A stretch of 64,000 nucleotides of DNA from an uncultured Neomegalonema sp. (GTDB taxonomy: Bacteria; Pseudomonadota; Alphaproteobacteria; Rhodobacterales; Rhodobacteraceae). Positions 3,203 through 30,791 of the stretch are shown piece after piece; the stretch's first letter is position 1, and each line of letters begins with the position of its first letter. The notes under the pieces were generated by a model. The model did not search any database, was not told the DNA's origin, and saw only the letters and a program-made list of their open reading frames with translations. Both the position numbers and the translations under genes were made by a program. The stretch covers positions 3,223-67,222 of the forward strand of contig CALGNO010000119.1 in the NCBI GenBank assembly GCA_937958625.1. The letters run 5' to 3'.

Positions 3203-3796
3203 TCAGGCGGCAACCGAGCGACGACGGCGCCATACGCCAAAGAACAGCGCCATGGCGGCGATCAGGGTCAGCGGCGAAGGAACCGGAACCTGACCGGTCG
3301 GGGTGCCGGCACCGGGGGTTGCTGTTCCGCCGAAGTGGAAGTCACCGAAATGCTGGCTCGTTCCGGCGACAACCAGCCAACCGTCACCACGGATCTCGTC
3401 GCCGAGGGTCAGATTGAAGCCCTTACCGCCAACATCGGCACCGCCAAAGCTGCCCACAGCACCCATGTCGTTCAGGGTCAGCGTGTCGCCGTTCTGCACG
3501 ACGTCGCTGTAGTTCAGCTCGAAAGGCACCAGACCGTTCACCCGGTTGTCGAAGACCTGACCCGAAATCTGCACGGTGCCCGCATCTCTGTCATAGGTCA
3601 GTTTAGCGTCGGCGCCCTGGGCGTCAAAGTTCAGGGGCGTAAAGCCGTCGTCGCCGCGCTGGAAAAAGCCGCCCGGGCCGTTCCGGTTGTCGGTGGAGTC
3701 CTGCAGGTCATAGGTGATCACGCCTGCATGGGCGTCTGCAACAAAACCCATGGCAAGGGCGGTTACGGCGAAGGCAGTGGTCTTGATCATGTTCAT
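3203..3796 (-). CDS. Secreted protein with PEP-CTERM/VPLPA-CTERM-like C-terminal sorting signal
   Basis: N-terminal signal peptide MNMIKTTAFAVTALAMGFVADAHA. The C-terminus is GQVPVPSPLTLIAAMALFFGVWRRRRS: a Pro-rich motif, a hydrophobic helix and an Arg cluster, as in exosortase-type CTERM tags. It has its own terminator. Confidence 0.7.
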   Translation of the reverse strand: MNMIKTTAFAVTALAMGFVADAHAGVITYDLQDSTDNRNGPGGFFQRGDDGFTPLNFDAQGADAKLTYDRDAGTVQISGQVFDNRVNGLVPFELNYSDVVQNGDTLTLNDMGAVGSFGGADVGGKGFNLTLGDEIRGDGWLVVAGTSQHFGDFHFGGTATPGAGTPTGQVPVPSPLTLIAAMALFFGVWRRRRSVAA

Positions 3797-7185: not shown

Positions 7186-8730
7186 TTATGCGAACGACCA
7201 GCGTTCTGCGATGCGCAGGCCGTCCATCTGCCACGCATTCGATACCTGCTCGGGCTGTTGCAGCTTGGTCGAGGCGGCGTCGATGTAGTTGGCGTACATC
7301 GGGATGACGGTCCCGCCATCGGTGCGCACCAGATCCTGCATCTCGCGGTAAAGCGCGCCGCGCTTGTCGCTGTCCAGTTCAACACGGGCCTGAAGCAGCA
7401 GATCGTTGAACTTCTTGTTGTTCCAGAACGCATCGTTCCAAGGCACACCGGCCTCGTAGGCGGTGTTGAACATCCAGTCCTCGGTGGCACGGCCCGACCA
7501 GTAACAGGCGCAGAACGGCTTTTTCATCCAGACATTGGACCAATAGCCATCCTTCGGCTCGCGGACGAGGTCGATGGTGACGCCACCGGCGGCGGCAGCC
7601 TCCTGATACAGAACGCCCGCATCCACGGCACCGGGGAAGGCGGCGTCGGACACCGACAGCTTGACGGTCAGCGAATCCATTCCGGCCTGTTTCAGATAGA
7701 ACTTCGCCTTGTCCGGGTCATAGCTGTGCTGGTCCAGATCGGGGGCGTAGTACTGGTTTGCGGGACCGATGGGATGGTCATTCGCCACCGCGCCGTGGCC
7801 GTAGAGAACCTTGTCCACCAGCGCCTGACGGTCGATGGCGTGCTTCATGGCCAGGCGGACATTGTTGTCCTCATAGGGCCGCGCACGGGTATCCATCGGG
7901 AAGGTGTAGTGTTGGTTGCCGGTGACTTCGAAGACGAAGACGCCCTTGTTGCGCTCCAGCAGGCGCACGGTCTTGGGTTCGATCTTGTTGATGACATCGA
8001 CTTCGCCGGTCACCAGCGCGTTGATGCGGGCGGCGGTGTCGTTGATGCCGACATATTCGACCGAGTCGAAATGCCCGCGATCATCGCGGTAATCATTACG
8101 GTTTTTCTCGCCCGAGGCCCGAACGCCCGGTTCGAAATCGGTCAGGGTATAGGCCCCGGTGCCGATACCCTTTTCAATCGCCTCGTCAAAGCCCTCGGCG
8201 GGGTACATCAGCAGGTGATAGTCCGACAGCAGATAGGGGAAATCGGCATTGCCGTTTTTCAGCGTAAAGCGGATGGTCCGGTCATCCAGCTTGGTCATTT
8301 CTTCGATGGGCTGAACGATCGGCTTGGCGGCGGATTTCGATTTCTCGCCCCGGTGGTGGTTGAGCGAGGCGATGACGTCGTCGGCCCCAAAGCTCTTGCC
8401 GTTGTGGAACTCGGCCTCGCGCAGTTTGAAGGTCCAGGTCGAGGCATCGGCGCTGGCTTCCCAGCTTTCGGCCAACTCGCCGCCCAGCGAACCGTCGGCT
8501 TTCACTTCGGTCAGGCAGTCGAAGATCGTGCCGGAGCAGAGAAGCTGCATGAACGCATCGGTATGGGTTGCGCCGTCAAGGTTATCGACCGTGTTACCGC
8601 CCGAAATCCCGACGCGCAGGTTGCCGCCCTGTTTCTTTTCGGCGGAGGCAGGCTTGACACCGGCAGCAAGCGCACCGGCACCGACGGCACCGAGTTGCAG
8701 GGCCCTGCGGCGGTTGAGTTCAAAAGACAT
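7186..8730 (-). CDS. ABC transporter substrate-binding protein, family 5 (peptide/nickel type)
   Basis: Start trimmed to ATG 8730, giving MSFELNRRRALQLGAVGAGALAAGVKPASA, a twin-arginine signal. The remainder reads as a family-5 SBP. The longer 600-aa ORF would add an Arg/Trp-rich nonsense leader. Confidence 0.85.
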   Translation of the reverse strand: MSFELNRRRALQLGAVGAGALAAGVKPASAEKKQGGNLRVGISGGNTVDNLDGATHTDAFMQLLCSGTIFDCLTEVKADGSLGGELAESWEASADASTWTFKLREAEFHNGKSFGADDVIASLNHHRGEKSKSAAKPIVQPIEEMTKLDDRTIRFTLKNGNADFPYLLSDYHLLMYPAEGFDEAIEKGIGTGAYTLTDFEPGVRASGEKNRNDYRDDRGHFDSVEYVGINDTAARINALVTGEVDVINKIEPKTVRLLERNKGVFVFEVTGNQHYTFPMDTRARPYEDNNVRLAMKHAIDRQALVDKVLYGHGAVANDHPIGPANQYYAPDLDQHSYDPDKAKFYLKQAGMDSLTVKLSVSDAAFPGAVDAGVLYQEAAAAGGVTIDLVREPKDGYWSNVWMKKPFCACYWSGRATEDWMFNTAYEAGVPWNDAFWNNKKFNDLLLQARVELDSDKRGALYREMQDLVRTDGGTVIPMYANYIDAASTKLQQPEQVSNAWQMDGLRIAERWSFA

Positions 8731-8794
8731 CCTTGTTCTCCCTTGGATTTTCTCGTTTTTGATACTGGGAGTTTCACAATTCCCGCCTGGTAAG

Positions 8795-10015
8795 TCAAAC
8801 GCCGGGCCGGGGACGGGAAAATGCCACCAGGATCGCCGCCAATCCGGTAAAGGCCAAAAGCGCGTAAACCAGCGGTGTCGCGGTGCCGTCATAGAACTGA
8901 GCCACGGAATAGGCCCCGAGGGCCGCGCCAATGCTTTGCCCCGCGCCGAACAGCACGCCCGCCGCCGCGCCGCGTTGCTTCGGCACATTGGCCAGCATCA
9001 CCAGAGGGGCCGACGAAAATGTCAGCCCGAGGCCGAAGGAAAACACCGACATCGCCATCACGATCCTGATCGGGGAGAGCAGCTCTGCCAGATCGAGAAA
9101 CACCATGAGCAGCGCGCCGAGCAGCGACAGCGCAACGCCTACGCGCATGATCGTGCGTGGCAGGGCCATATCCGCCAACCGGTTCGCCACGCCCGCGCCA
9201 ACGATATAGGCGACGACGCCGATTGCGTAATACAGCCCATAACGCTCGGTCGCGACGCCCAGCGTGTCGATCAACAGAAACGGACCGGCGGTGATATAGG
9301 CAAATAACCCTGCAAAAACAGCGCTAAAGGCCAGCCCCGGCAGAACAAAGCGCGAGTCGCTCAACAGCGATTTATAGCGTCGCAGGGACAATCGCCAATC
9401 GAGGGGTGTCTTGCGCCCGGTTTCCGGCACAAAGAGCCAGCCCGCCGCCGCAACGATGATCCCGAGTATGCAGAGAATAACGAAATTCGCCTCCCAGCCC
9501 ATCGTCACATGCACCCAGCCGCCGATGACCGGCCCCAGCGCCGGGGCGACGCCGATAGCCGCGCCATAGATGCTGAGCACGCGCACCGCGTCCGGCCCCT
9601 TGTAGATGTCGCGGATGATCACGACGCCGAGCACCGACACGACCGAGGCCGCCGCGCCTTGCCCAATCCGCAGCGCAATCAGGGCCTCAATGGTTGGTGC
9701 GAGGGCGCAGGCGAGGCTGAAAACGGCGAAAATGCCCATACACCAAGACAAAAGCGGCCTGCGCCCGAACCGGTCAGAGAGCGGCCCGATCAGGAACGGC
9801 CCAAGGGCATAACCGAGGAAATTCGCGCTCATGGTCATCTGCACGGTCCCGGCATCGGTGCCGAAAACCCGCGTCAGATGGGGCAGCGAAGGGGTATAGA
9901 GGTCGGTCGACAGGATCGACACGATCATGCAGGCGATCAGCACCGCCGGGATCGACCAATGCGCCGCTACGTCACCAGTCTGGTGCGGCGCTCGGGTTTT
10001 CCGGGCAACGGTCAC
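8795..10015 (-). CDS. MFS transporter, Bcr/CflA drug-resistance subfamily
   Basis: 406 aa with about 12 hydrophobic segments. Carries the motif GPLSDRFGRRPLL after TM2, typical of Bcr/CflA exporters. Confidence 0.85.
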   Translation of the reverse strand: MTVARKTRAPHQTGDVAAHWSIPAVLIACMIVSILSTDLYTPSLPHLTRVFGTDAGTVQMTMSANFLGYALGPFLIGPLSDRFGRRPLLSWCMGIFAVFSLACALAPTIEALIALRIGQGAAASVVSVLGVVIIRDIYKGPDAVRVLSIYGAAIGVAPALGPVIGGWVHVTMGWEANFVILCILGIIVAAAGWLFVPETGRKTPLDWRLSLRRYKSLLSDSRFVLPGLAFSAVFAGLFAYITAGPFLLIDTLGVATERYGLYYAIGVVAYIVGAGVANRLADMALPRTIMRVGVALSLLGALLMVFLDLAELLSPIRIVMAMSVFSFGLGLTFSSAPLVMLANVPKQRGAAAGVLFGAGQSIGAALGAYSVAQFYDGTATPLVYALLAFTGLAAILVAFSRPRPGV

Positions 10016-10117
10016 AATCGGTCCAGTCCTGATGATGTCGAGCTGCCGCCTACCTCGCCCCCCGGTGCCATCCGGTCAAGAGGTTATGGCAAATCATCCC
10101 AAAAGACTGCGCCCGAT

Positions 10118-10137
10118 TGCCCCTATTTCGCTGCGGC
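10118..10137. repeat. Left copy of a 20-bp direct repeat, TGCCCCTATTTCGCTGCGGC
   Basis: Identical 20-mer at 13465-13484; 22 of 23 positions match if extended 3 nt to the right. Confidence 0.9.
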
Positions 10138-10269
10138 TTCGCGTCCGGCGCACTTTGATCGCAAGGCGGTTGCCGATCTCGCGAATACAGCTTTTAATGT
10201 ACAAAAGGTTGATCAGGCCCATAGCTTGATCGAGTTTCCCGGCGGTTTTGCGAAAACAGGATACACTAC

Positions 10270-11832
10270 GTGGAAGACTATATTGATACTGCCGAGAAAT
10301 ACATCGCCGCCGTACCTGAGATAGGCGCGATCTATGCGTCGATAATCGAAAATCCACTCGCGCTGGCCTTCTGCGTGATCATTGCAGTAGTTTTTGGCAT
10401 CGGCCTGCTGATGTTGGTCAGTACCAGAGCCTTTGGCTTGCGGCGAGGGACAAAGGCAGTCTCGATTATTCCGAGTATGCTCGCGACCCTTGGCGTCTTG
10501 GGGACATTCACAGGCATCCTGCTGGGGTTGCTTGATTTCAATGTCGATGCAATCGATGACAGTATCCCGCGTCTTCTCGGTGGGCTTACCGTTGCGTTCA
10601 GTACGTCGATCGTCGGCATGGGGGCCGCCTTAATATTCAGGGTTCTGGATGTCCTATTGCCTGGGCGGAGGCAGGCCGGAAAAGCAACTGCAGATGATCT
10701 GCGTTTTATCCTCGAGCAGATCCGAGAAGAAAATCGCATAAGTGCAGCGTCTGTAATCAATGCCATGTCGATGGATGGCGCGATCGTCAGCGCCTTGGAG
10801 GCCGGTCGCGCTCAAACCGAAAGGCAATCGGTTCTGCTTGGCGAAGGCATCGCCGATTTGCGGAAGGCGGTCTCCTCCGATGCTGACTCGAGCCTCGTCA
10901 CACAGCTTCAGAAACTGCGCAGCACCATTCAGGATGGTCAGAGCGATCTGATCCGCGAGTTTCGTGAATTTGCGCGTCATATGACCGAAAACACCAACAA
11001 GGTTTTGATCGAGGCACTTCAGAACGTCATCCGTGATTTCAACGACAAGATCACGGAGCAGTTTGGTGATAACTTCAAAGAGCTGAACCGCGCTGTTGGC
11101 GCTTTGCTCGAATGGCAGGAGAACTACAAGGATTTCGTCGAACGGACGGAAACGCGGGTCGCGGCGACTCTCGAAGCATTGGAGTCGAGCGAAAGAGCAA
11201 TCGGATCGGTAAAGGAGCATACGGCAGCCATCCCTGCGGCAATGGCGCTTTTGACCCCGCCTCTGATGACTTTGAATGAACAGTCGAGCACACTGGCATC
11301 GCATCTCGATGCCGTTGGTGGCCTGCGCGAAAAGGCCCTCGAAGCATTCCCGGTTGTCGAGGAAAATCTCAGGAAAATAACCGATGATCTTGGCAATCAC
11401 GTAACCTCGGCGGTGACCTCGACGGGCGAAGCATTGGAGAAGCAACGCGCAGCAAATGAAGATTTGTCATCGCGGTGTGCCGAGTTGTCCGCAGATTCTT
11501 CACGGTTGCAGAAGACGTTTTCTACTGAACTCGAACGTGCCCTCGGAAAAATGGCGGAGGAAACAAACGCTGCATTCGCCAGTCATTCTCAAACGATTGA
11601 GCAGACGACGGCTGAGATCCAGCGTCAGGTATCGGAAGCATGGAAAAGGACTGAAGACTCGATCAACGGTCGCATGGAAACGTTGGATAATGAAATTCAG
11701 CAGGAGTTGCAGCGAACGCTTTCCGTGATGGGCAGTAATCTGGCGTCCATCTCGGAGAAATTCGTGTCGGACTACACGCCACTCACCGAGCGGTTGCGCG
11801 ATGTCGTGCAGATTGCGTCGAGGGTATCGTGA
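10270..11832 (+). CDS. zorA: ZorA-like MotA/ExbB-family proton-channel protein with a long helical tail
   Basis: Three TM helices (LALAFCVIIAVVFGIGLLMLV; IIPSMLATLGVLGTFTGILLGLL; LLGGLTVAFSTSIVGMGAALIFRVL) in MotA/ExbB arrangement. These are followed by about 370 aa of charged helical sequence. GTG start is uncertain. Confidence 0.72.
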   Translation: MEDYIDTAEKYIAAVPEIGAIYASIIENPLALAFCVIIAVVFGIGLLMLVSTRAFGLRRGTKAVSIIPSMLATLGVLGTFTGILLGLLDFNVDAIDDSIPRLLGGLTVAFSTSIVGMGAALIFRVLDVLLPGRRQAGKATADDLRFILEQIREENRISAASVINAMSMDGAIVSALEAGRAQTERQSVLLGEGIADLRKAVSSDADSSLVTQLQKLRSTIQDGQSDLIREFREFARHMTENTNKVLIEALQNVIRDFNDKITEQFGDNFKELNRAVGALLEWQENYKDFVERTETRVAATLEALESSERAIGSVKEHTAAIPAAMALLTPPLMTLNEQSSTLASHLDAVGGLREKALEAFPVVEENLRKITDDLGNHVTSAVTSTGEALEKQRAANEDLSSRCAELSADSSRLQKTFSTELERALGKMAEETNAAFASHSQTIEQTTAEIQRQVSEAWKRTEDSINGRMETLDNEIQQELQRTLSVMGSNLASISEKFVSDYTPLTERLRDVVQIASRVS

Positions 11833-12572
11833 GCGGCATATTTGAAGACGGCACGTCCGATGACAGCGAATGGGTTTCGATTTCGGATCTGATGGCGGGA
11901 TTGATGCTGATCTTCTTGTTCATCGCGATCATATATATTCGAGTACAGGTCGCCGACAAGGAAAAGGCGATAGCCGAAAGCCGTGCATTGGCGACGACGC
12001 AGGAGCAGATTCAGGAAATCGTCGTCACATGGCAGAGGTCATCCGAAGAGATCGTCGTCGCGCTTCAGGACGAATTCAGGGACGATCTTGACCGCTGGAA
12101 TGCCGAGATCGACGCAGATAATTTGACGATCCGCTTCAAGGCACCCGATGTCCTGTTCGAAGAGGGTAAAGCGGAACTGCAACCTCGATTTAAGGATATC
12201 CTACGTGATTTCTTCCCCCGCTATCTTCGGGTACTTCGAGAGTATCTGGATGTCATTGACGAAGTAAGGATCGAAGGTCATAGCTCCTCGGAATGGATCG
12301 CCGGAATGGACCCGGTCGATGCCTTCTTCCGCAACATGAAGTTGTCACAGGACCGAACCCGTTCGGTGCTCGAATTTTCATTGACTGTCGATGGAACCCA
12401 GAATGATCGCGCCTGGGCGTTGAGCCGGATTACTGCCAACGGTCTGTCTTCCAGCCGCCTTGTCTTTCGTGAAGATGGAACGGAAGATCGTTTCGCCTCG
12501 CGGCGCGTGGAATTCAAGGTGAGAACGAAGACTGAAGAGCAGATCGTCAGAATTCTGGAATCGATTCAATGA
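11829..12572 (+). CDS. zorB: ZorB-like MotB/OmpA-family stator protein
   Basis: GTGA overlap with the upstream stop. Has a MotB-type TM helix with the conserved Asp (WVSISDLMAGLMLIFLFIAIIYI). The C-terminus is OmpA-like (RIEGHSSSEW...LSQDRTRSVLEF...ASRRVEFKV). Confidence 0.75.
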   Translation: MSGIFEDGTSDDSEWVSISDLMAGLMLIFLFIAIIYIRVQVADKEKAIAESRALATTQEQIQEIVVTWQRSSEEIVVALQDEFRDDLDRWNAEIDADNLTIRFKAPDVLFEEGKAELQPRFKDILRDFFPRYLRVLREYLDVIDEVRIEGHSSSEWIAGMDPVDAFFRNMKLSQDRTRSVLEFSLTVDGTQNDRAWALSRITANGLSSSRLVFREDGTEDRFASRRVEFKVRTKTEEQIVRILESIQ

Positions 12573-13429
12573 AGCTCGATGTGGATTTCTCGGCGCTCGC
12601 CGAGAGCGTTCGCCGAATGGGTGCTTCGGCTGTGGCATGGACTCCCGAAGCCCCGGGTCTGGACGAACGAGCGATTCTCCGCGAGCGCCTGAGTAGTACC
12701 GGCATCGAAATTTCGCTGAACGATGTCGTGGCAGGTCCCGGTGGGCTGCTCACCTACAAGAATGAACAGGTCATTCTCTATATCAAGGATACTCACAAGT
12801 CTTTGGAAGTGCTGCGCGATGAGCCGGAGAAGGCAGTACGCTTCCACGTCGCCGATTGCAGGACGCTCGAAAGTATGCGCGCGGAAAGCCGGTTTGAACG
12901 CTATGTGGTGACGCGAAATACAACCGGCGTTTTTCAGTGCGACTGGAAGAATTTTGATACTGGAGAACGCGGAGAAGTCGGTTCCAGGCTAAAGGTTTGC
13001 AAAAACTGTCTGAACTTGCTTCGATGGCGCGGATATGGGATGCCTCGGCATCCAAAAGGCCCGATCTGGAACGGTTTTGACCTGTCAGACTTTCTTCTGG
13101 AGTATGCAACTTTCTTCACGTCCTTGCCGTCGCGCGTCGCCGAGGAGACCGGCTTGGATGACTACGTCAAAGACTGGTCGGTCATCTCAATGAGAACGCG
13201 CGAGGCCAGCGGTTTTACCTGCAGCGAATGTGGTGTCGTGGCGTCGACCCAAAAGTCGGTACTGCATGTTCACCACAAGGATCGCATTCGCAGCAATAAC
13301 GACCCACAGAATTTACAGGTCTTATGCGCGCTCTGTCACCGCAATCAAGCCGGCCATAGTCATATGCATATTCGCAATCAGGACGAACGAACGATCCGTA
13401 AGTTGCGAGCAGCGCAGGGCATTCCATAG
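12569..13429 (+). CDS. zorE: ZorE-like HNH endonuclease
   Basis: ATGA overlap with the zorB-like stop. C-terminal HNH motif HVHHKDRIRSNNDPQNLQVLCALCHRNQ, preceded by CxxC pairs (CKNCLN, CSECGV). Confidence 0.75.
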   Translation: MKLDVDFSALAESVRRMGASAVAWTPEAPGLDERAILRERLSSTGIEISLNDVVAGPGGLLTYKNEQVILYIKDTHKSLEVLRDEPEKAVRFHVADCRTLESMRAESRFERYVVTRNTTGVFQCDWKNFDTGERGEVGSRLKVCKNCLNLLRWRGYGMPRHPKGPIWNGFDLSDFLLEYATFFTSLPSRVAEETGLDDYVKDWSVISMRTREASGFTCSECGVVASTQKSVLHVHHKDRIRSNNDPQNLQVLCALCHRNQAGHSHMHIRNQDERTIRKLRAAQGIP

Positions 13430-13464
13430 CCTCATACTTGATCGCGCATCTTGCATTCTGATGC

Positions 13465-13484
13465 TGCCCCTATTTCGCTGCGGC
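13465..13484. repeat. Right copy of the 20-bp direct repeat, TGCCCCTATTTCGCTGCGGC
   Basis: Identical to 10118-10137. Overlaps the stop codon and last four codons (AAAK*) of the ABC ATPase gene 13470-15143 (-). Confidence 0.9.
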
Positions 13485-15143
13485 ATCCGCATCATCCGGG
13501 TCGACTGCATCGCCGCGTTCCCGGGCGGCGAGCAAGTCGGTCAGCCAGTCTGGGTCCATTTCCGGCACCGATGATAGCAGTAGGTCGGTGTAGGGATGGT
13601 GCGGCGGGCGGAACATTTCGACCTTCGGTCCCTGTTCGACCACCTTGCCATATTGCATCACCACGACCTCGTCAGCGATGGCGCGTACGGTGGCCAAATC
13701 GTGGGTTATGAACATATAAGCGAGGCCCAGATCGATCTGCAACTTGTCGAGCAGGCGCAGGATGCCCTCCGCCACGAGTTGATCGAGGGCGCTGGTGACT
13801 TCGTCGCAGATGATGAACTGCGGGTCCGCCGCCAGGGCGCGGGCGATGCCGATGCGCTGTTTCTGGCCGCCGGACAACTCACCCGGAAAGCGGTGCATGT
13901 AGATATCGGGTTCCAGCTCGATCAGGTCGAGCAACTCGCGGACCCGCTCGCGCTGTTGCTTGCCGCTGAGGCCGAGATAGAACCCCACGGGCCGCCCGAT
14001 AATATCGCCGATGCGCTGTTTCGGGTTCAGGGCGGTATCGGCCATCTGATAGATCATCTGGGCCTGGCGCAGCTGATCCTTGTTCCGCTTGCGGTAATCG
14101 GCGGGCAGGGTCTCGCCGTTGAACAGGATTTCGCCGGTGCTGGGCGGCAGCAGGCCGGTGATGACACGGGCTGCGGTTGATTTCCCCGAGCCGGACTCGC
14201 CCACGACAGCGACCGTGCGGCCCTTGTGGATCTTGAAATTGACGTCGAACAGAACCTGGGTGGTGCCATAGGCGGCATCCACATTCTTCAGCTCGACGAC
14301 CGGCACTTCATCGACGGGCGGCTTGGGTTTCGCGGTGGCCTTGAAGCTGCGCACGGCCCAGAGCGACTTGGTATAGTCCTCCTCGGGCTGGGACAGCATC
14401 TTGCGCGTTTCGGCCTCTTCGACCGTCTCGCCGAGCTTGAAGACCTGGATCCGGTCGGCCATCTGCGCGACGACCGCGAGGTCGTGGGTGATGTACATCG
14501 CGGCAGTGCCGAACTGTTCGACGGCATCGCGGATCGCCGACAGCACCTCGATCTGCGTCGTCACGTCCAGGGCCGTGGTCGGTTCGTCAAAGATGATCAG
14601 GTCGGGGCGGCAGGACATCGCCATCGCGGTCATCGCGCGTTGCAGTTGCCCGCCCGAGACCTGATGCGGATAGCGGAAGCCGATTTCATCGGGGTTCGGC
14701 AGTTGCAGGCGACGATAGAGGTCGGTCGCATCGCTCTGCGCTTCGGCGGAGGCCATCACGCCATGCTGGATCGGGGCCTCGGAATACTGGTCGATGAGCC
14801 GATGGGCCGGGTTGAAGCTGGCCGCCGCCGATTGCGCGACATAGGCGATACGCTTGCCGCGCAGCTTGCGGCGATAGGTCTCCGATGCCTGCACCAGATC
14901 GGTGCCGTCGAAATTGACCGTGCCGCCCGAGATGCGACACCCGCCGCGGGTATAGCCCATGGCGGCGAGGCCGATGGTGGACTTGCCCGCCCCGGATTCG
15001 CCGATGACGCCCAAGACCTCGCCGCGATTGAGGTCGAGGTCGATGCCCTTCAGGATCGGCAGCCAGTCGTCACCGCTTTTGCCATCAATCTTGAGGTTGC
15101 GGATTTCGAGGATTTTATCGTCGGACATGGGATGCTGTTCCAT
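13470..15143 (-). CDS. ABC transporter ATP-binding protein with two fused ATPase domains (DppD/DppF-like)
   Basis: Two Walker A sites (GESGAGKST, GESGSGKST), two signature motifs (VSGGQLQR, LSGGQKQR) and two Walker B motifs (IIFDEPTTALD, FIICDEVTSALD). Confidence 0.92.
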   Translation of the reverse strand: MEQHPMSDDKILEIRNLKIDGKSGDDWLPILKGIDLDLNRGEVLGVIGESGAGKSTIGLAAMGYTRGGCRISGGTVNFDGTDLVQASETYRRKLRGKRIAYVAQSAAASFNPAHRLIDQYSEAPIQHGVMASAEAQSDATDLYRRLQLPNPDEIGFRYPHQVSGGQLQRAMTAMAMSCRPDLIIFDEPTTALDVTTQIEVLSAIRDAVEQFGTAAMYITHDLAVVAQMADRIQVFKLGETVEEAETRKMLSQPEEDYTKSLWAVRSFKATAKPKPPVDEVPVVELKNVDAAYGTTQVLFDVNFKIHKGRTVAVVGESGSGKSTAARVITGLLPPSTGEILFNGETLPADYRKRNKDQLRQAQMIYQMADTALNPKQRIGDIIGRPVGFYLGLSGKQQRERVRELLDLIELEPDIYMHRFPGELSGGQKQRIGIARALAADPQFIICDEVTSALDQLVAEGILRLLDKLQIDLGLAYMFITHDLATVRAIADEVVVMQYGKVVEQGPKVEMFRPPHHPYTDLLLSSVPEMDPDWLTDLLAARERGDAVDPDDADAAAK

Positions 15144-25547: not shown

Positions 25548-26351
25548 ATGCGTCTGCTTCTTGCCGCCGGTATTTTGCTGGGTACGGCGGTGCACGCCCA
25601 GGCCCATGAGTTCTGGATTGAGCCATTGGATTTCACGCCCGAACCCGGTGTGGCCATCGCGGCTCAGACCCATGTGGGGCAAATGCTGAAGGGCGATACC
25701 TATTCGTATATCCCGGCCTCCTTCGTGCGGTTCGATATAGCAGATTCCGAGGGGGTGCGCCCGGTGGAGGGAACAATCGGCGACCGCCCCGCCCTGCGCG
25801 TCGACCCGCTGGTAGAGGGGCTGCACATCGCCGTTTATCAATCGACGCCCTCGACCCTGCGCTATCGCAAGGCAGAGAAATTCGCCGCTTTCGTAGCCAA
25901 GGAAGGGCTGGACGGTACGCTGGAGGCTCATGCCGAACGGGGCTTGCCGGCGGTCGATTTTCGCGAGGCCTATACCCGGTTCGCCAAGGCGCTGGTCGCG
26001 GTGGGCGCGGGCGCGGGGGAGGACCGGGCGCTCGGCCTGCGCCTCGAGCTGATCGCGTTGACAAATCCGTATGAGAGCGATGGCCCGGTCGCCGCAGAGG
26101 TGCGTTTTGAGGGCGCGCCGCTGGCGGATGTGCAGGTCGCCGCGTTTCGCCGGGATGAGGAGGGCACCGTCACCCGCACCCTGTTTCATACCGATGCCAA
26201 GGGCCGCGTGACCGTGCCCCGCGAAAATGCGGCGATGACCCTCCTCAGCGCCGTCCATATGGTCGAACCAAAGCCCGACCTCGCCGAGCGCCGCAATGTC
26301 GTCTGGCACAGCCTGTGGGCCTCGCTGACCTATGGCGCGGAGTCCGATTGA
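25548..26351 (+). CDS. DUF4198 domain periplasmic protein (NikM/CbiK-like metal-uptake component)
   Basis: Signal peptide MRLLLAAGILLGTAVHAQA, followed by HEFWIEP, the usual DUF4198 N-terminus. Start is ambiguous (25509, 25539 or 25548). Confidence 0.7.
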   Translation: MRLLLAAGILLGTAVHAQAHEFWIEPLDFTPEPGVAIAAQTHVGQMLKGDTYSYIPASFVRFDIADSEGVRPVEGTIGDRPALRVDPLVEGLHIAVYQSTPSTLRYRKAEKFAAFVAKEGLDGTLEAHAERGLPAVDFREAYTRFAKALVAVGAGAGEDRALGLRLELIALTNPYESDGPVAAEVRFEGAPLADVQVAAFRRDEEGTVTRTLFHTDAKGRVTVPRENAAMTLLSAVHMVEPKPDLAERRNVVWHSLWASLTYGAESD

Positions 26352-26391
26352 CCGCTTGCCAGCCTGCCCGTCCCGCCCCATGATAGTTCCC

Positions 26392-26967
26392 ATGAACGCG
26401 GTTCTTAAGATAGGCAATACCGAATACGAACCGGCCCGCTTTGACCGCGAGCTTATTCTCGCGGCGGCGGAGAGCGGATTTTTCCATCGTCTCGGGCGGG
26501 TCGAAGTTATCGACGGGGTGCTGGTACGCGCGTCTCGTTCTTATCTGCCGCACGGTGCAGCGCTTATGAAAACCGGGGCCGCTCTGCTGTCGCGCCTGCC
26601 AGAGCCTTTAACCGTTACCTCGGACACCATCGTCCTGTTCGGCACCGAGGGGATGCGCGCGCCGGATATTGCGGTGGTGGACCGGGCACTGGACGCTGAC
26701 ATCCTCGAACCGGGCGACCTGCATCTTGCTATCGAGATCGCGGACTCGTCCCTGGGTTATGACTTGGGCGACAAGGCCAGATTCTACGCCGCCCACGGCA
26801 TTGCGGAATACTGGGTCATCGACCTGACGGGCCAACGCACCGTCTGCCATCGTGATCCGGCCTCCGAAGGGTATGCCGATGTCAGAGACGTGCCGTGGAC
26901 CCGCGCCATCAGCCCGGGCGCGGCGCCAGAAGTCTCTTTGATCTTTTCGGAGCTGCTCGAAGACTGA
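26392..26967 (+). CDS. Uma2 family (DUF820) PD-(D/E)xK-like endonuclease
   Basis: Motifs PDIAVV...LAIEIADSS...DKARFYAAHGIAEYWVIDL in the order typical of Uma2 proteins. Start at ATG 26392. Confidence 0.7.
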   Translation: MNAVLKIGNTEYEPARFDRELILAAAESGFFHRLGRVEVIDGVLVRASRSYLPHGAALMKTGAALLSRLPEPLTVTSDTIVLFGTEGMRAPDIAVVDRALDADILEPGDLHLAIEIADSSLGYDLGDKARFYAAHGIAEYWVIDLTGQRTVCHRDPASEGYADVRDVPWTRAISPGAAPEVSLIFSELLED

Positions 26968-27033
26968 CCCCCCTTGCCCGCCGCCCGCGCTGGTGTAGGG
27001 TCAGGCCGACCCACAACCCGAGACCGCGCGCCC

Positions 27034-28152
27034 ATGTTCCGCTTCATCCACAGTTCCGACCTGCATCTCGGCAAGCCCTATGGCCAGATGCCCGAGGATA
27101 TTCGCGGCAATCTGACCGAGGCGCGGTTCGCGAAGATCGAGGCTTTGCTTGATCTTGCCGAGCGTGAGGGGGCGACGCATATCCTGTTGGCGGGGGATAC
27201 GTTCGACGCCGAGACGCCCTCGGACAAAACCCGCAGACAGGCGATCCGGGCGATGGCGCGGGACAGCGGTATCCGCTGGGTGATCATCCCCGGCAATCAT
27301 GATTCCCTGGCTGCCGATGAGCTGTGGCGCACCCTTGCGAGCGAAGCCCCGGAGAATGTGACCCTTGCGCTCGAGGCGCAGCCGATGGCGCTCGCAGATG
27401 GTGTTATGCTGTTGCCCGCGCCATGCCCTGCGCGCCGCTCTGGGCGCGACCTCGGGGCGTGGATGGACGAGGCGGCGACGCCCGAGGGAACCCTGCGAAT
27501 CGGTCTCGCCCATGGCGGGGTGCAGTCGTTCGCCGAGGACGGGTCCGCCGATACGCTGGCCCCGGATCGGGCCGCTCGGGCGGGTCTGGATTACCTCGCG
27601 CTCGGTGACTGGCATGGGCAAATGCAGGTCGAACCGCGCACGTGGTATTCGGGCACCCCCGAGGCTGACCAGTTCAAGCACGCGGGCCGCGCCGGGGCGC
27701 TGGTGGTCACGCTCACCGGGTCTGGCGCGCTGCCGCAGATACAGGCGGCGGATACGGGCGAGTATCTCTGGCAAAGCCATGATCTGTCGGTCACCCCGGG
27801 CACGGATGCCGCCGCTCAGGCTGCGGCGCTGTTACCGCCCGAGGCCGAGCGCCGTAAGGCCCTGTTGCGCTTTAATCTATCCGGGCGGATCGACCCCGCC
27901 GGGCGCGGCGCGCTCATCGCGGCACTGCAACAGTCCGCACCAGATTTTGCCTTTCTCGACTGGCGCGAGCGCGATTTGCGTGTCGAATATGACGCTGAAG
28001 ACCTCGACCAGATTGATCAGGGGGGCGTCTTGCGGGCCGCTGCCGAGACCCTGCGCGCCGAAGCCGATGACGCCGATCTTTCCGCCGCCGACCGCGCCAT
28101 CGCCCGCCGCGCGCTCAACCGCCTTTATGGCTACGCGGTCGAAGCACCATGA
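27034..28152 (+). CDS. SbcD/YhaO-like metallophosphoesterase (DNA repair exonuclease family)
   Basis: MFRFIHSSDLHLG...ILLAGDTFD...IIPGNHD...GLAHG are calcineurin-like phosphoesterase motifs I-IV. Confidence 0.8.
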   Translation: MFRFIHSSDLHLGKPYGQMPEDIRGNLTEARFAKIEALLDLAEREGATHILLAGDTFDAETPSDKTRRQAIRAMARDSGIRWVIIPGNHDSLAADELWRTLASEAPENVTLALEAQPMALADGVMLLPAPCPARRSGRDLGAWMDEAATPEGTLRIGLAHGGVQSFAEDGSADTLAPDRAARAGLDYLALGDWHGQMQVEPRTWYSGTPEADQFKHAGRAGALVVTLTGSGALPQIQAADTGEYLWQSHDLSVTPGTDAAAQAAALLPPEAERRKALLRFNLSGRIDPAGRGALIAALQQSAPDFAFLDWRERDLRVEYDAEDLDQIDQGGVLRAAAETLRAEADDADLSAADRAIARRALNRLYGYAVEAP

Positions 28153-30791
28153 GGCTGACCGCGATCCGCCTGCATAATGTGCGCAGCTTTGCGGGGCGCG
28201 GCATTGCCATCGACGCGATTGGCGAGGGCGTGAATGTGCTGGCCGAGGCCAATGAATACGGCAAATCCACGATCTTCGACGCCGTCCACGCACTCTTCTT
28301 TCAGTCCCACAAGGGCAAGGGCGGCGCGATCAAGGCGCTGCAACCCTATAGCGGTGGCTCGATCACTGTAGAGGCCGAGGTCGAGACCCCCGAGGGCCGG
28401 TTTCACCTGCGCAAACGCTGGCTCTCGAAGGCGCAGGCAACCGTGGCCGATGCCGCGACCGGGCGGCTGATTGCCCAGGCCGACGAGGCCGACCGCTGGA
28501 TCGACGCCCGGATGCGCGGCGGTGCGGCGGGACCGGCGGGCTTGCTGTGGGTGCAGCAGGGCGCGGTCGAAATGGGCAAGGGCGGCGGCAAGGCGGGCGA
28601 GGCTGAAAAAGCGGCGCGGGAGGATGTGCTGACCTCGGTATCCGGCGAGATCGAGGCCCTGACCGGCGGGCGGCGCATGGCGCAAGTCTTGGCAAAATGC
28701 AGCGCCGAACTTGATCCGCTGGTGACCGCCACGGGCAGGCAAAAAGCCGGTGGCCCTTATGCCGCAGCGCTGCAACATCGGGACGAGTTACAGGCGCGGC
28801 GCGACGAACTGGACGGTATCGTCAACGAGTTGCGCGGCCATCTGGATCAACGGGCGACCGCCCGCCGCCGCCTTGCTGACTTGCAAGAGGCGGACACCGC
28901 CGAGCATGACAGACACGCCCTCGCCGCCGCGACCAAGGCACTGATCGACGCCGAGGCGCAGGCGGAAAAACTGGAGCGCGCCGAACTCGCCGAACGGCTG
29001 GCACGGCAGGAGCAACAGGCGGCAAGCGAGGCCCTTGCCGGGTTCGAAAAGGCACTCGCCGGTATCGCGGCGCTCAAGACGCGCATCGACGGCGAAGCAG
29101 CGGTTTTTACGGAGGCCACCGAGAAACGCGACCGGGGCCGCGCCGCCCGCGATACCGCCGCCGAGGCACTAGGCGCAGCCGACGAGGCCCTGCGCCGCGC
29201 CGATGCAGCGCTCACCGCTGCCCGAAAAGCCGACCTCGCCCGCGCCGCTGCCGCCCGACTGTCCGAACGTCGCCAGACCTTGACCGGTGCCGAAACCGCC
29301 GCGCGGGAGGCGGATGAGGCGCGGGCGCAGGCGACGGCGCTCGATGTGCCCAAGGCAGACTTAACGCGCCTTGATGGTTTGACCGACGAGGTCGCCACCC
29401 TGACCGCCGAGCAGCGGGCAAGTTCGGCCTCGATCCGCATCGCCTATGCCGGGCCCGATGCGCCGCGTATCCGGCGGGATGGTGCGGTGGTGCCCGATGA
29501 TGAACCGATGGCGATCGAGGGCACAGCGCGTTTTGACATCGACGGCGTCGGGGCGCTGACCGTTTCCTCCGGTGCAGGTTCAGCGTCGGGCGCGGTGCAG
29601 CAAAACCTTGCCCGCGCAAGGCAGGGACTTGCTGATCTGCTGACGAAAATCGGCGTTCCTACACCCGATGCCGCCCGCACGCGCGCGCGGAAAGCCGATG
29701 GGCACCGCCATGCCGCCGACCTCGCCACCACCCGCCTTGAAACCCTCGCGCCGAAGGGTCTCGATGCCCTGCGGACGGAGGTTGCCGCCTTGGCGGCGCA
29801 GGCCGAGGAAATGCCGGAATCAGCGGAGCCGGTCGAGACCCTCGCCGAGCGCCATCGTCTGGCGGGCGATGCCCGCGCCCGCGCGGAAGCGCAGAGAGAT
29901 GCTGCGCAGACGGCGCTCAATACCCTTGAGCGGGGATTGGTCGAGAGCGAAACTAACCTCGCCCGCTCGCGTGAGGCGCTTCAGCGCGATGAAACCGCCG
30001 CGGGCGAGGGTGGCGACCCCGACGCGCGGCGCGCTGCGTTGACCCAGGCCAGCGCGGAGACGGCGCGGGCGTTTGACGTCGCTAAGAGTGCCGCCGATGC
30101 GTTGCGCGCGCAGACCCCCGACCTTATCACCCTGCGCGCCGCAAAGGCCCGCGCCGAAAGCGTGCTGACCCGCAGCCGCGCCGAGACAGAGAGCCTTGGC
30201 CGGACCATCAGCGAACTCGATGGCCGCATCGGCACCCGTGCCGAGCAGGGCGTCGAGGAAGAACTGGCCGAAGTCGAAGGCCGCCTTTCCCGCGCCGCTG
30301 ACCATGTCGCCGGACTGGAAACGGAAATCGCCGCGCTCCAGCGTCTCAAGACCGTGCTGACCGACGCACGGGCGCAGGCCAAGGAGCATTTTTTCGAACC
30401 GGTCATGGCCGAACTCCGCCCGCTGCTATCGCTCGTTTTCGGAGATGCCGTCGTGACGTTCGATGAGACGACCCTGCTGCCGGTTTCGGTTGAACGCGGC
30501 GGCGAGGTGGAAAAATTCGATGTGCTCAGCGGTGGGATGCGCGAGCAGATAACGATCCTGACCCGCCTCGCCTTTGCCCGCCTGCTGGCCCAGGACGGGC
30601 GCACGGTGCCGGTCATTCTCGACGATGCGCTGATCTATTCCGATGATGCGCGGATCGAGCGGATGTTCGATGCCTTGCACCGGCAGGCCACCGACCTGCA
30701 AATCCTCGTCTTCACCTGCCGCCAGCGCGCCTTCCGCGCCCTTGGCGGGCGAGAGATGCAGGTGGCGGCATGGTCGCCGGAGGATGGTTGA
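28149..30791 (+). CDS. SbcC/YhaN-like AAA/SMC-type ATPase with long coiled coil
   Basis: ATGA overlap with the phosphoesterase gene. N-terminal Walker A (LAEANEYGKSTIFDA), about 600 aa of Ala/Arg/Glu-rich coiled coil, then a C-terminal LSGGMREQ signature and VPVILDDALIYSDD Walker B. Confidence 0.8.
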   Translation: MRLTAIRLHNVRSFAGRGIAIDAIGEGVNVLAEANEYGKSTIFDAVHALFFQSHKGKGGAIKALQPYSGGSITVEAEVETPEGRFHLRKRWLSKAQATVADAATGRLIAQADEADRWIDARMRGGAAGPAGLLWVQQGAVEMGKGGGKAGEAEKAAREDVLTSVSGEIEALTGGRRMAQVLAKCSAELDPLVTATGRQKAGGPYAAALQHRDELQARRDELDGIVNELRGHLDQRATARRRLADLQEADTAEHDRHALAAATKALIDAEAQAEKLERAELAERLARQEQQAASEALAGFEKALAGIAALKTRIDGEAAVFTEATEKRDRGRAARDTAAEALGAADEALRRADAALTAARKADLARAAAARLSERRQTLTGAETAAREADEARAQATALDVPKADLTRLDGLTDEVATLTAEQRASSASIRIAYAGPDAPRIRRDGAVVPDDEPMAIEGTARFDIDGVGALTVSSGAGSASGAVQQNLARARQGLADLLTKIGVPTPDAARTRARKADGHRHAADLATTRLETLAPKGLDALRTEVAALAAQAEEMPESAEPVETLAERHRLAGDARARAEAQRDAAQTALNTLERGLVESETNLARSREALQRDETAAGEGGDPDARRAALTQASAETARAFDVAKSAADALRAQTPDLITLRAAKARAESVLTRSRAETESLGRTISELDGRIGTRAEQGVEEELAEVEGRLSRAADHVAGLETEIAALQRLKTVLTDARAQAKEHFFEPVMAELRPLLSLVFGDAVVTFDETTLLPVSVERGGEVEKFDVLSGGMREQITILTRLAFARLLAQDGRTVPVILDDALIYSDDARIERMFDALHRQATDLQILVFTCRQRAFRALGGREMQVAAWSPEDG

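What the first reader, a model, noticed from the sequence alone, without database searches (positions are those of the whole stretch)
10118..13484. Type II Zorya-like MotA/MotB/HNH defence cassette bracketed by a perfect 20-bp direct repeat on the 3' end of an ABC ATPase gene
Three plus-strand genes, coupled by a GTGA overlap at 11829-11832 and an ATGA overlap at 12569-12572, lie antiparallel inside a minus-strand transporter block.
- Gene 1: MotA/ExbB-type TM helices plus a helical tail of about 370 aa.
- Gene 2: a MotB-type TM helix with the conserved Asp (ISDLMAG) plus an OmpA-like domain.
- Gene 3: HNH (HVHHKD...NLQVLCALCH).

This is the ZorA-ZorB-ZorE architecture of the known type II Zorya anti-phage system. 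The system itself is therefore not new, but its context is informative.

G+C is about 52% (31/60 at 11461-11520) against about 68% in the flank (41/60 at 14161-14220). The 20-mer TGCCCCTATTTCGCTGCGGC occurs at 10118-10137 and again at 13465-13484. The right copy supplies the last four codons and the stop of the ATPase gene.

This looks like an att-core or target duplication from site-specific insertion. However, no integrase or transposase lies between the repeats, so the cassette would have to be mobilised in trans or be a stranded cargo.
Basis: partly seen in the sequence, partly recalled or inferred. Interest (0 to 1): 0.7.

Follow-up and report, generated by a model that had tools for sequence, protein, structure and literature searches.

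The report
Zorya II defence cassette, recent insertion
A three-gene anti-phage operon (type II Zorya) was recently inserted just past the end of a transporter gene, duplicating 20 bases of the target. A near-identical strain still has the uninterrupted site, yet the insert carries no enzyme that could have moved it.

Summary

- **The repeat.** The 20-mer TGCCCCTATTTCGCTGCGGC occurs only at 10118-10137 and 13465-13484. It is the longest exact direct repeat in the window.
- **The cargo.** The repeat brackets 3,327 bp holding only zorA2-zorB2-zorE. PADLOC E-values are 1e-93, 3e-85 and 7e-85; the best solved-structure match is the type II ZorAB complex 8VVI. This stretch is the lowest-GC segment of the window (53.5% against 62.6%).
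- **The empty site.** Contig L217, from a conspecific (98.6% DNA identity), runs ATPase, 107 bp, MFS with one copy of the 20-mer. Removing the insert plus one repeat from the window reproduces L217 base for base in length.
- **No mobility gene.** I found no integrase, transposase, terminal inverted repeats or tRNA in or beside the insert. Homology stops exactly at the 20-mer.
- **Recurrence.** Other, distant Zorya II cassettes are also bracketed by target-derived repeats of different sequence (19, 19, 20, 26 and 27 bp, and longer). This holds for 7 of 58 cassettes against 2 of 292 mock segments.
- **Open question.** How the cassette moved is unresolved. I favour a staggered-cut target duplication made in trans over an att core.

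The defence system is known. The recombinase-free insertion is the interesting part.

The parts
10118..10137 (.). Left copy of the 20-bp direct repeat. It is a duplicate of the ATPase 3' end and serves no gene here.
   Evidence: The empty site L217 has only one copy.
10138..10269 (+). 5' non-coding end of the insert, probably the promoter and leader of zorA. A possible -35 TTGCCG lies at 10170-10175 and a possible -10 TTTAAT at 10193-10198. An AGGA ribosome-binding site precedes the GTG start. Three TTGATC motifs are present.
   Evidence: Sequence read. The consensus scan found no strict sigma-70 site, so the promoter is inferred by eye.
10270..11832 (+). zorA2, 520 aa. MotA/ExbB-type hydrophobic segments span about residues 18-132, followed by a helical tail of about 390 aa.
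   Evidence: PADLOC ZorA2 1.5e-93. PDB 8vvi_F 5.4e-54. Pfam MotA_ExbB 21.2 bits, just under its cut-off. Hydropathy.
11829..12572 (+). zorB2, 247 aa. One transmembrane helix carrying Asp20, followed by an OmpA-like peptidoglycan-binding domain.
   Evidence: PADLOC ZorB2 3.3e-85. PDB 8vvi_A 2.4e-42, with SISDLMAGLM aligned to SLSDMMTSLM. Pfam OmpA 29.9 bits, above its cut-off of 27.2.
12569..13429 (+). zorE, 286 aa. HNH nuclease effector, with H233-H236, N248 and H257.
   Evidence: PADLOC ZorE2 7.5e-85 over residues 1-285. NCBIfam ZorE is the only hit. Pfam HNH and HNH_3 are weak. Motif positions.
13430..13464 (+). 3' non-coding end of the insert, 35 bp, carrying one further TTGATCGC motif.
13465..13484 (.). 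Right copy of the 20-bp direct repeat. It supplies the last four codons, the stop and 5 nt of trailer of the ATPase gene.
13470..15128 (-). Target gene: a fused two-domain ABC ATPase of a peptide-type transporter, 552 aa from the called start. It is intact.
   Evidence: Pfam ABC_tran with two matched stretches, plus oligo_HPY. This exact protein is on record. Conspecific allele P0127.
8795..10015 (-). MFS transporter gene. It is the downstream neighbour of the ATPase gene in the empty site, 107 bp away.
   Evidence: Pfam MFS_1 5.3e-53. The same adjacency is seen in L217 and in the sister species L218.

Best explanation
**What it is (shown).** The segment 10138-13464 is a self-contained type II Zorya anti-phage operon (zorA2-zorB2-zorE with its own upstream leader). 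It was inserted recently as one 3,327-bp piece, 5 nt downstream of the stop codon of an ABC ATPase gene in a Rhodobacterales-like alphaproteobacterium.

- The insertion duplicated 20 bp of the target, so the ATPase reading frame is kept by the right-hand copy.
- A conspecific strain still has the uninterrupted site with one copy of the 20-mer.

**How the defence works (inferred from the family).** A ZorA5B2 proton-driven membrane motor senses phage attack. It recruits or activates the ZorE HNH nickase, which damages DNA.

**How it got there (inferred).** The cassette is non-autonomous.

- It encodes no recombinase and has no inverted ends.
- Homology with the target stops exactly at the 20-mer.
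- The target is a non-conserved C-terminal tail.

I therefore commit to this reading: the repeat is a target-site duplication made at the moment of insertion. Two nicks about 20 nt apart on opposite strands were filled in around an incoming DNA fragment, and the machinery acted in trans (host end-joining or repair enzymes, or an unidentified transposition-like enzyme).

After that first event the filled allele could spread within the species by ordinary homologous recombination through its flanks.
For: **System identity.**. The known mechanism is taken from PMC11890865.

**Insertion and duplication.**
- The repeat is unique.
- Both junctions are confirmed by an independent assembly.
- The empty site L217 reads ...CCCGAT|20-mer|ATCCGC....
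- The window minus the insert and one repeat copy is 3,522 bases, the same as L217. It differs by 46 substitutions and two offsetting 1-nt indels. None lies within 320 bp to the left or 90 bp to the right of the junction.
- The sister species L218 is syntenic and has no cassette.

**Foreign composition.**
- The insert is 53.5% G+C against 62.6% for the rest of the window.
- Third-codon-position G+C is 0.61-0.62 in the zor genes against 0.77-0.87 in the adjacent transporter genes.

**Non-autonomy.**
- Only the three ORFs lie inside the repeats.
- There are no terminal inverted repeats.
- There is no tRNA in the window.
- No integrase was found among the window ORFs examined.

**Duplication rather than pre-existing homology.**
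- Alignment scores beyond the 20-mer equal those of shuffled sequence.
- The 20-mer is absent from the 91%-identical sister ATPase locus and from 80 other relatives.

**Recurrence elsewhere.**
- Distant Zorya II cassettes carry their own target-derived repeats of unrelated sequence: L132 20 bp, L125 19 bp, L082 19 bp with 2 mismatches, L129 27 bp, L141 26 bp.
- Repeats scoring 15 or more bracket 7 of 58 cassettes against 2 of 292 mock 3.3-kb segments (p = 7e-5). Leaving out the window and collapsing related loci gives p = 1.5e-3.
Against: - No enzyme is known to make 20-bp duplications around a DNA piece that lacks inverted ends. The nearest precedents, IS1634 and IS1549, carry a transposase.
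- The repeat lies on a gene's 3' end and includes the stop codon, as it also does in L082 and L125. That is the classic signature of integrase att sites.
- Four same-strand TTGATC motifs in the 167 bp of non-coding cassette ends could be recombinase arm sites.
- Other loci clearly used homology or att-type routes:
  - L146, L151 and L152 have 314-561-bp repeats whose two copies differ.
  - L127 has a 50-bp repeat that is the 3' half of tRNA-Asp.
- Most Zorya II loci in the sample (about 80%) show no flanking repeat.
- The donor of this cassette and any free form of it are unknown.
Confidence: 0.5

Rival explanations
1. The 20-mer is the identity core of attL and attR. The cassette would be an integrase-less integrative element (CIME-like, or a miniature satellite). 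It would be integrated and excised by a tyrosine recombinase encoded elsewhere in the genome or on a helper element.
For: - The repeat length falls in the usual att-core range.
- It restores the 3' end of a gene, as do the repeats in L082 and L125.
- L127 shows a Zorya II islet at the 3' half of tRNA-Asp, with a 50-bp repeat and no integrase inside.
- TTGATC(G) occurs four times, on the same strand, in the non-coding ends.
- CIMEs are an established category.
- L082 and L090 hold cassettes only about 69% identical at one and the same site, in hosts whose flanks are about 88% identical by my reading of the flanks printed (for the cassettes).
Against: - There is no integrase in or next to the cassette, and none among the ORFs checked in the 64 kb.
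- There is no third copy of the core and no tandem partner element.
- The target is a non-conserved protein tail, absent from the sister species. An incoming attP would need a perfect 20/20 match to it.
- Related cassettes share no end sequences.
- The attB region shows no dyad symmetry (my reading).
Confidence: 0.3
2. A circular DNA carrying the cassette plus a short stretch identical to the ATPase 3' end integrated by a single (Campbell-type) crossover, using host or phage homologous-recombination proteins.
For: - Pasteurellaceae-like loci L146, L151 and L152 have 314-561-bp repeats flanking Zorya II, with the two copies 91-99% identical. That fits a homology-driven insertion-duplication.
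- The L151 insert also carries dld and a pta fragment, which are the cassette's neighbours in another genome, L156.
Against: - 20 bp is at or below the length at which RecA-type recombination is efficient (my own knowledge).
- The identity ends abruptly, with no decaying homology on either side.
- The circle would have had to contain this species-specific 20-mer beforehand.
Confidence: 0.1
3. The cassette promotes its own insertion. ZorE, a nickase that also cuts host DNA, would make the offset nicks into which the operon DNA is then captured.
For: - ZorE mainly makes single-strand breaks in host and phage DNA, with occasional double-strand breaks attributed to nicks on opposing strands (PMC11890865).
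- Repeat-bracketing was seen around cassettes from distant lineages whose only shared content is ZorABE.
Against: - There is no evidence that ZorE is sequence- or site-specific, or that it joins DNA.
- I did not test whether other small operons show the same repeats, so specificity to Zorya is unproven.
- The recipient lacks ZorE before it acquires the cassette.
Confidence: 0.05
4. The repeat is a coincidence or an assembly artefact.
For: The length equals k-1 for k=21 assemblers.
Against: - None of 100 shuffles gave two copies.
- A k=31 assembly from another run has both junctions.
- The empty allele exists, with exactly one copy.
Confidence: 0.01

Closest known systems
Type II Zorya (ZorA2-ZorB2-ZorE), as in E. 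coli and in the Sulfuricurvum kujiense ZorAB structure 8VVI
   Same: - Same three genes, in the same order and translationally coupled.
- ZorA has MotA-like membrane segments and a long helical tail.
- ZorB has the conserved Asp and an OmpA-like domain.
- ZorE has an HNH motif.

(PMC11890865)
   Different: - It is divergent. ZorA is only about 25% identical to the E. coli plasmid ZorA2.
- All three proteins fall far below NCBI's naming cut-offs: 211 against 700, 210 against 400, and 214 against 600 bits. Public annotation gives them no name.
- It stands alone rather than beside Druantia III, as it does in E. coli.
CIMEs and other integrase-less att-flanked islets (decayed ICEs or IMEs)
   Same: [quoted passage not shown]
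   Different: - No related integrase-bearing element lies in tandem or nearby.
- The target is a non-conserved gene tail.
- Only a promoter plus one operon lies inside, and the same tight layout recurs in unrelated hosts.
IS1634 and IS1549, insertion sequences that create long, variable direct repeats (8-514 bp)
   Same: Target duplications far longer than the usual 2-14 bp and variable between copies. This matches the 19-27 bp and longer repeats seen here across loci.
   Different: Those elements encode a DDE transposase and have terminal inverted repeats. This cassette has neither.
Genomic islands that integrate into the 3' end of protein genes with repeats of about 17-27 bp (for example SGI1 in trmE; from my own knowledge)
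   Same: The repeat has a similar length and overlaps the stop codon of the target gene.
   Different: Those islands carry their own integrase and target conserved genes.

Membership tests
Type II Zorya | ZorA: MotA/ExbB-type membrane domain plus a long cytoplasmic helical tail | tested here: met
   PADLOC ZorA2 1.5e-93, far ahead of ZorA1 and ZorA3 models. 8vvi_F 5.4e-54. Hydrophobic segments at residues 18-132, then about 390 aa of tail.
Type II Zorya | ZorB: transmembrane helix with the conserved Asp, plus a peptidoglycan-binding OmpA-like domain | tested here: met
   PADLOC ZorB2 3.3e-85. 8vvi_A 2.4e-42, with Asp20 aligned. Pfam OmpA above its cut-off.
Type II Zorya | ZorE: HNH nuclease effector as the third gene, with no ZorC, ZorD, ZorF or ZorG | tested here: met
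   PADLOC ZorE2 7.5e-85, full length. HNH residues located. The neighbouring genes are transporters.
Type II Zorya | Scores above NCBIfam equivalog cut-offs (naming-level equivalence to the enterobacterial system) | tested here: inconclusive
   The best, or only, hits are ZorA2, ZorB2 and ZorE, but at 211, 210 and 214 bits against cut-offs of 700, 400 and 600. This is a curation threshold rather than a biological feature. It marks the cassette as a divergent subclade.
Type II Zorya | Protects against phage, dependent on ion flow and on the nuclease | not testable with these tools
   Needs cloning and phage challenge.
Integrase-mobilised integrative element or CIME | Direct repeats at both ends and an empty site with a single copy in relatives | tested here: met
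Integrase-mobilised integrative element or CIME | Integrase inside, adjacent, or on a tandem partner sharing the att site | tested here: not met
   Only the Zor ORFs lie inside. There are only two copies of the 20-mer in 64 kb. No integrase was found among the ORFs examined. The rest of the genome was not available.
Integrase-mobilised integrative element or CIME | Excised circular form carrying attP | not testable with these tools
   Needs the raw reads. Short contigs of related cassettes are not circular.
Transposon or insertion sequence | Target-site duplication | tested here: met
   20 bp, sharply bounded. This is unusually long.
Transposon or insertion sequence | Terminal inverted repeats and a transposase | tested here: not met

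The most novel reading that the evidence does not exclude
Compact type II Zorya operons, and perhaps small defence operons in general, may move by a recombinase-free, duplicative insertion route. That route would leave target duplications of about 19-27 bp next to stop codons and would need no conserved element ends. It could work by capture of a DNA fragment at offset nicks, conceivably helped by the ZorE nickase itself. This would be an unrecognised way for defence genes to enter genomes outside classical mobile elements.
Probability: 0.2. Interest if true: 0.8.

Novelty: new member of a known kind. Interest (0 to 1): 0.5.

Why it matters
How defence systems that do not sit on recognisable mobile elements get into genomes is an open question. 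This locus offers an unusually clean natural experiment. A filled and an empty allele exist in strains 98.6% identical, the junctions are exact, and a 20-bp duplication is present with no mobility gene. Distant Zorya II cassettes carry their own flanking repeats, which suggests a general process that could be tested by a pangenome survey and by integration assays. The locus also adds a divergent alphaproteobacterial subclade of type II Zorya that current NCBI naming thresholds miss.

Tried and rejected
- **Species-level genome scan with the ATPase.** The 80 loci were at most 82% identical. None had Zor genes or the 20-mer. They were too distant for an empty-site test.
- **Exact look-up of the long ATPase ORF.** It failed because the called gene starts 5 codons later. 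The MFS look-up only re-found the filled allele.
- **90% identity clusters.** Each holds essentially one member. The partial MFS contigs L093 and L094 do not reach the junction.
- **Plasmid collection.** There is no DNA match to the cassette. Protein matches are few and distant.
- **E. coli Zorya II.** It sits in a larger island beside Druantia, so it is not comparable.
- **Viral contigs.** One real ZorA2 relative; the rest are other MotA-like proteins.
- **Locus L216 (P0053).** A single context across 22 contigs, with no flanking repeat.
- **Searches that found nothing.**
  - Extended homology beyond the 20-mer.
  - Terminal inverted repeats or end motifs shared between cassettes.
  - tRNA genes.
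  - Circular contigs.
- **Assembly artefact with k-1 = 20.** Rejected.
- **Loss of an ancestral integrase.** Rejected as the general explanation. The tight promoter-plus-operon layout between repeats recurs independently.
Full report
**1. The observation**

The 20-mer TGCCCCTATTTCGCTGCGGC is present exactly twice in the window, at 10118-10137 and 13465-13484. No further copy appears even with three mismatches, and none of 100 dinucleotide-preserving shuffles gave two matches. It is the longest exact direct repeat in the 64 kb.

Between the two copies lie 3,327 bp holding three plus-strand ORFs at 10270-11832, 11829-12572 and 12569-13429. They sit between a minus-strand MFS gene (8795-10015) and a minus-strand ABC ATPase gene that ends at 13470.

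Read on the minus strand, the right repeat copy is GCC GCA GCG AAA TAG GGGCA. That is the last four codons, the stop and 5 nt of trailer of the ATPase gene.

The insert is 53.5% G+C, the flanks are 61-63%, and the insert is the lowest-GC 3.3-kb stretch of the window. Third-codon-position G+C is 0.61-0.62 in the three genes against 0.77-0.87 in the adjacent transporter genes.

A contig assembled independently from another sequencing run (L081, Logan, k=31) matches window 7513-13866 with four mismatches. None is near either repeat, so the structure is not an assembly artefact.

**2. What the three genes are**

| Protein | PADLOC type II model | Closest solved structure | Other evidence |
|---|---|---|---|
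| ZorA (520 aa) | ZorA2, 1.5e-93 | 8vvi_F, 5.4e-54 | Hydrophobic segments at residues 18-132, then about 390 aa of tail |
| ZorB (247 aa) | ZorB2, 3.3e-85 | 8vvi_A, 2.4e-42 | One membrane helix with Asp20 aligned to the structure's Asp; Pfam OmpA above its cut-off |
| ZorE (286 aa) | ZorE2, 7.5e-85 | none by sequence | HNH residues H233-H236, N248, H257 |

The PADLOC hits cover the proteins' full length and score far better than type I or III models. 8VVI is the type II ZorAB complex (PMC11890865). ZorE has no sequence relative among solved structures.

By gene content, order and motifs this is a type II Zorya system. The published mechanism is a ZorA5B2 ion-driven motor that recruits the ZorE nickase on infection. 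That is the best inference for what the cassette does here.

The cassette is a divergent member.
- NCBIfam's ZorA2, ZorB2 and ZorE models are the top hits, but at 211, 210 and 214 bits against cut-offs of 700, 400 and 600.
- No public source names these proteins.
- The nearest ZorA homologues are only 58-69% identical and come from a handful of metagenome contigs.

**3. The decisive test: an empty site**

Genomes of other species were too distant to help. The best ATPase match was 82% identical, with no Zor genes and no 20-mer.

A protein search with the ATPase then found a near-identical allele, P0127, and a 91%-identical one, P0128.

The contig carrying P0127 is L217 (3,522 bp, ENA ERZ23495526). 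It is 98.5-98.7% identical to the window and runs permease, ATPase, 107 bp, MFS with no Zorya genes. Its junction reads ...GACTGCGCCCGAT TGCCCCTATTTCGCTGCGGC ATCCGCATCATCC.... That is the window's left flank, one copy of the 20-mer, and the window's right flank.

Deleting the insert plus one repeat copy from the window gives a sequence of exactly 3,522 bases, colinear with L217.
- It differs by 46 substitutions and two offsetting single-base indels.
- There is no difference within 320 bp to the left or 90 bp to the right of the junction.

The sister species L218 has the same gene order (permease, ATPase, MFS, binding protein, DUF1801). It has no cassette and no exact 20-mer.

So the cassette is an insertion, the 20-mer belongs to the target, and the event is recent enough to be polymorphic within a species.

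**4. What moved it**

- Nothing between the repeats could have moved it; only the Zor ORFs are there.
- There are no terminal inverted repeats.
- There is no tRNA in the window.
- No integrase was found among the window ORFs I examined.
- Similarity between the two junction regions stops exactly at the 20-mer. Alignment scores on either side are no better than shuffled sequence.
- The target is a poorly conserved C-terminal tail, absent from the 91%-identical sister locus.

**5. Related cassettes**

The closest cassettes (ZorA 58-69% identical) sit in at least four other contexts. One of them is L082.
- It is bracketed by its own 19-bp repeat, CAATGTCGTAAGGGCGTAG and CAATGTCGTAAGGGCATAA, with a period of 3,321 bp.
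- Both copies encode NVVRA-stop, the end of the upstream gene.
- L090 is the same site in a related organism, but it holds a cassette only about 69% identical and lacks the second repeat copy.

I then screened 58 Zorya II loci that had both flanks, drawn from a metagenome scan plus the look-ups. The repeats found, all of unrelated sequence, were:

| Locus | Repeat | Note |
|---|---|---|
| L132 | 20 bp, perfect | |
| L125 | 19 bp, perfect | includes the stop codon of the convergent neighbour |
| L129 | 27 bp, 1 mismatch | |
| L141 | 26 bp, 2 mismatches | |
| L127 | 50 bp | the 3' half of tRNA-Asp, around a 4.9-kb islet with no integrase inside |
| L148 | 104 bp | lies next to a resolvase gene |
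| L146, L151, L152 | 314-561 bp | at one tyrA/queF junction; the two copies are 91-99% identical |

In L151 the insert also carries dld and a pta fragment. These are the cassette's neighbours in a different genome, L156. So there a plain piece of chromosome moved.

Repeats scoring 15 or more bracket 7 of 58 cassettes, against 2 of 292 mock 3.3-kb segments in ordinary genomic DNA (Fisher p = 7e-5). With the window left out and related loci collapsed, p = 1.5e-3.

The inserts share no end motifs. Most loci, about 80%, show no repeat, for example L083 and L216. That is expected if repeats decay with time, or if several insertion routes exist.

**6. Interpretation**

*Shown:* this is a type II Zorya operon, inserted as a discrete unit, with a 20-bp duplication of a target that exists uninterrupted in a conspecific.

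*Inferred:* the mechanism of insertion.

I favour a target duplication created at insertion: offset nicks filled in around an incoming fragment, by trans-acting or host enzymes. My reasons are:
- an incoming att site would need a perfect 20/20 match to a species-specific, non-conserved sequence;
- the identity is sharply bounded;
- the cassette ends are not conserved;
- four independent tight cases cluster at 19-20 bp with unrelated sequences.

Precedent for long, variable duplications exists only for the transposase-bearing IS1634 and IS1549.

The main rival is an att core used by a recombinase in trans, as for CIMEs. It is supported by:
- the position of the repeat on a gene's 3' end;
- the tRNA-Asp case, L127;
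- four same-strand TTGATC motifs in the 167 bp of non-coding ends, against 30 on that strand in the whole window.

A homology-driven insertion-duplication clearly happened in the Pasteurellaceae-like loci. It fits poorly here, because 20 bp is short and no extended homology exists.

A role for the ZorE nickase in making the breaks is speculative.

**7. Verdict**

The defence system is a new, divergent member of a known kind. The recombinase-free insertion with a proven 20-bp target duplication, together with its apparent recurrence, is the part worth following up.

Noticed in passing
window 10155, 10209, 10226, 13438: The hexamer TTGATC, mostly as TTGATCG, occurs four times on the same strand within the 167 bp of non-coding cassette ends. 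There are only 30 copies on that strand in the whole 64 kb. One copy lies 17 nt inside the left repeat and one 21 nt inside the right repeat. These could be recombinase arm sites, operator sites or chance.
   Followed up: partly
window about 30800-58700: A large type VI secretion gene cluster, judged by eye from the translations. It includes TssM-, TssL- and TssK-like genes, VgrG, TssB and TssC, Hcp, TssE, TssF and TssG, a ClpV-like ATPase, and a Ser/Thr kinase at 40284-42947. The kinase also hits PADLOC kinase models.
   Followed up: partly
window 26332-30791: A Uma2-family endonuclease gene is followed by a metallophosphoesterase gene and an 880-aa SMC/AAA-like gene. The pair is SbcCD-like, with weak PADLOC hits to LmuB and mad3. 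It could be a second defence-related module.
   Followed up: partly
L151 7400-14220 and L156 7885-13773: In Pasteurellaceae-like contigs the Zorya II operon moved together with its neighbours dld and part of pta. It moved from one chromosomal context (truB, lipoprotein gene, ZorABE, dld, pta, ackA) into the tyrA/queF convergent junction. There it is flanked by a 314-bp repeat whose copies are 95% identical. L146 has only ZorABE at that site, with a 561-bp repeat.
   Followed up: partly
L127 21-4993: A 4.9-kb islet holding ZorABE plus three small ORFs sits at tRNA-Asp, bounded by a 50-bp repeat of the tRNA's 3' half. No integrase lies between the repeats. The contig ends 49 bp past the second copy, so a tandem partner cannot be excluded.
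   Followed up: partly
L082 versus L090: Two related organisms carry Zorya II at the same site, right after the stop codon of a nucleotide-sugar-dehydrogenase-like gene. The left flanks are about 88% identical by my reading of the printed sequences, but the cassettes are only about 69% identical. Only L082 keeps the 19-bp repeat. This could reflect a hotspot, cassette replacement, or fast cassette evolution.
   Followed up: partly
L086, L092, L090, L091 (contig ends): Several contigs (three from Logan, one from ENA) of related cassettes are only 3.3-3.7 kb long and stop 60-250 bp outside the operon. L086 begins 29 nt before the stop codon of the upstream SOUL gene. Breaks like these are what a filled/empty polymorphism would cause in an assembly graph.
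   Followed up: no
L088 about 3490-3627: ZorE is cut short at about residue 178. It is followed by sequence with an inverted repeat (GATCTGACAG...CTGTCAGATC-like), perhaps the end of an insertion sequence that disrupted the cassette.
   Followed up: no
window 7186-10015, L218, and L010, L019, L040 and others: In this species and its sister, the MFS gene lies between the ABC ATPase gene and the substrate-binding-protein gene. In several Rhodobacterales relatives the binding-protein gene appears to follow the ATPase gene directly, judged from partial SBP matches beginning about 0.7-1 kb downstream with no MFS match. The MFS gene may itself be an older insertion into the operon.
   Followed up: no
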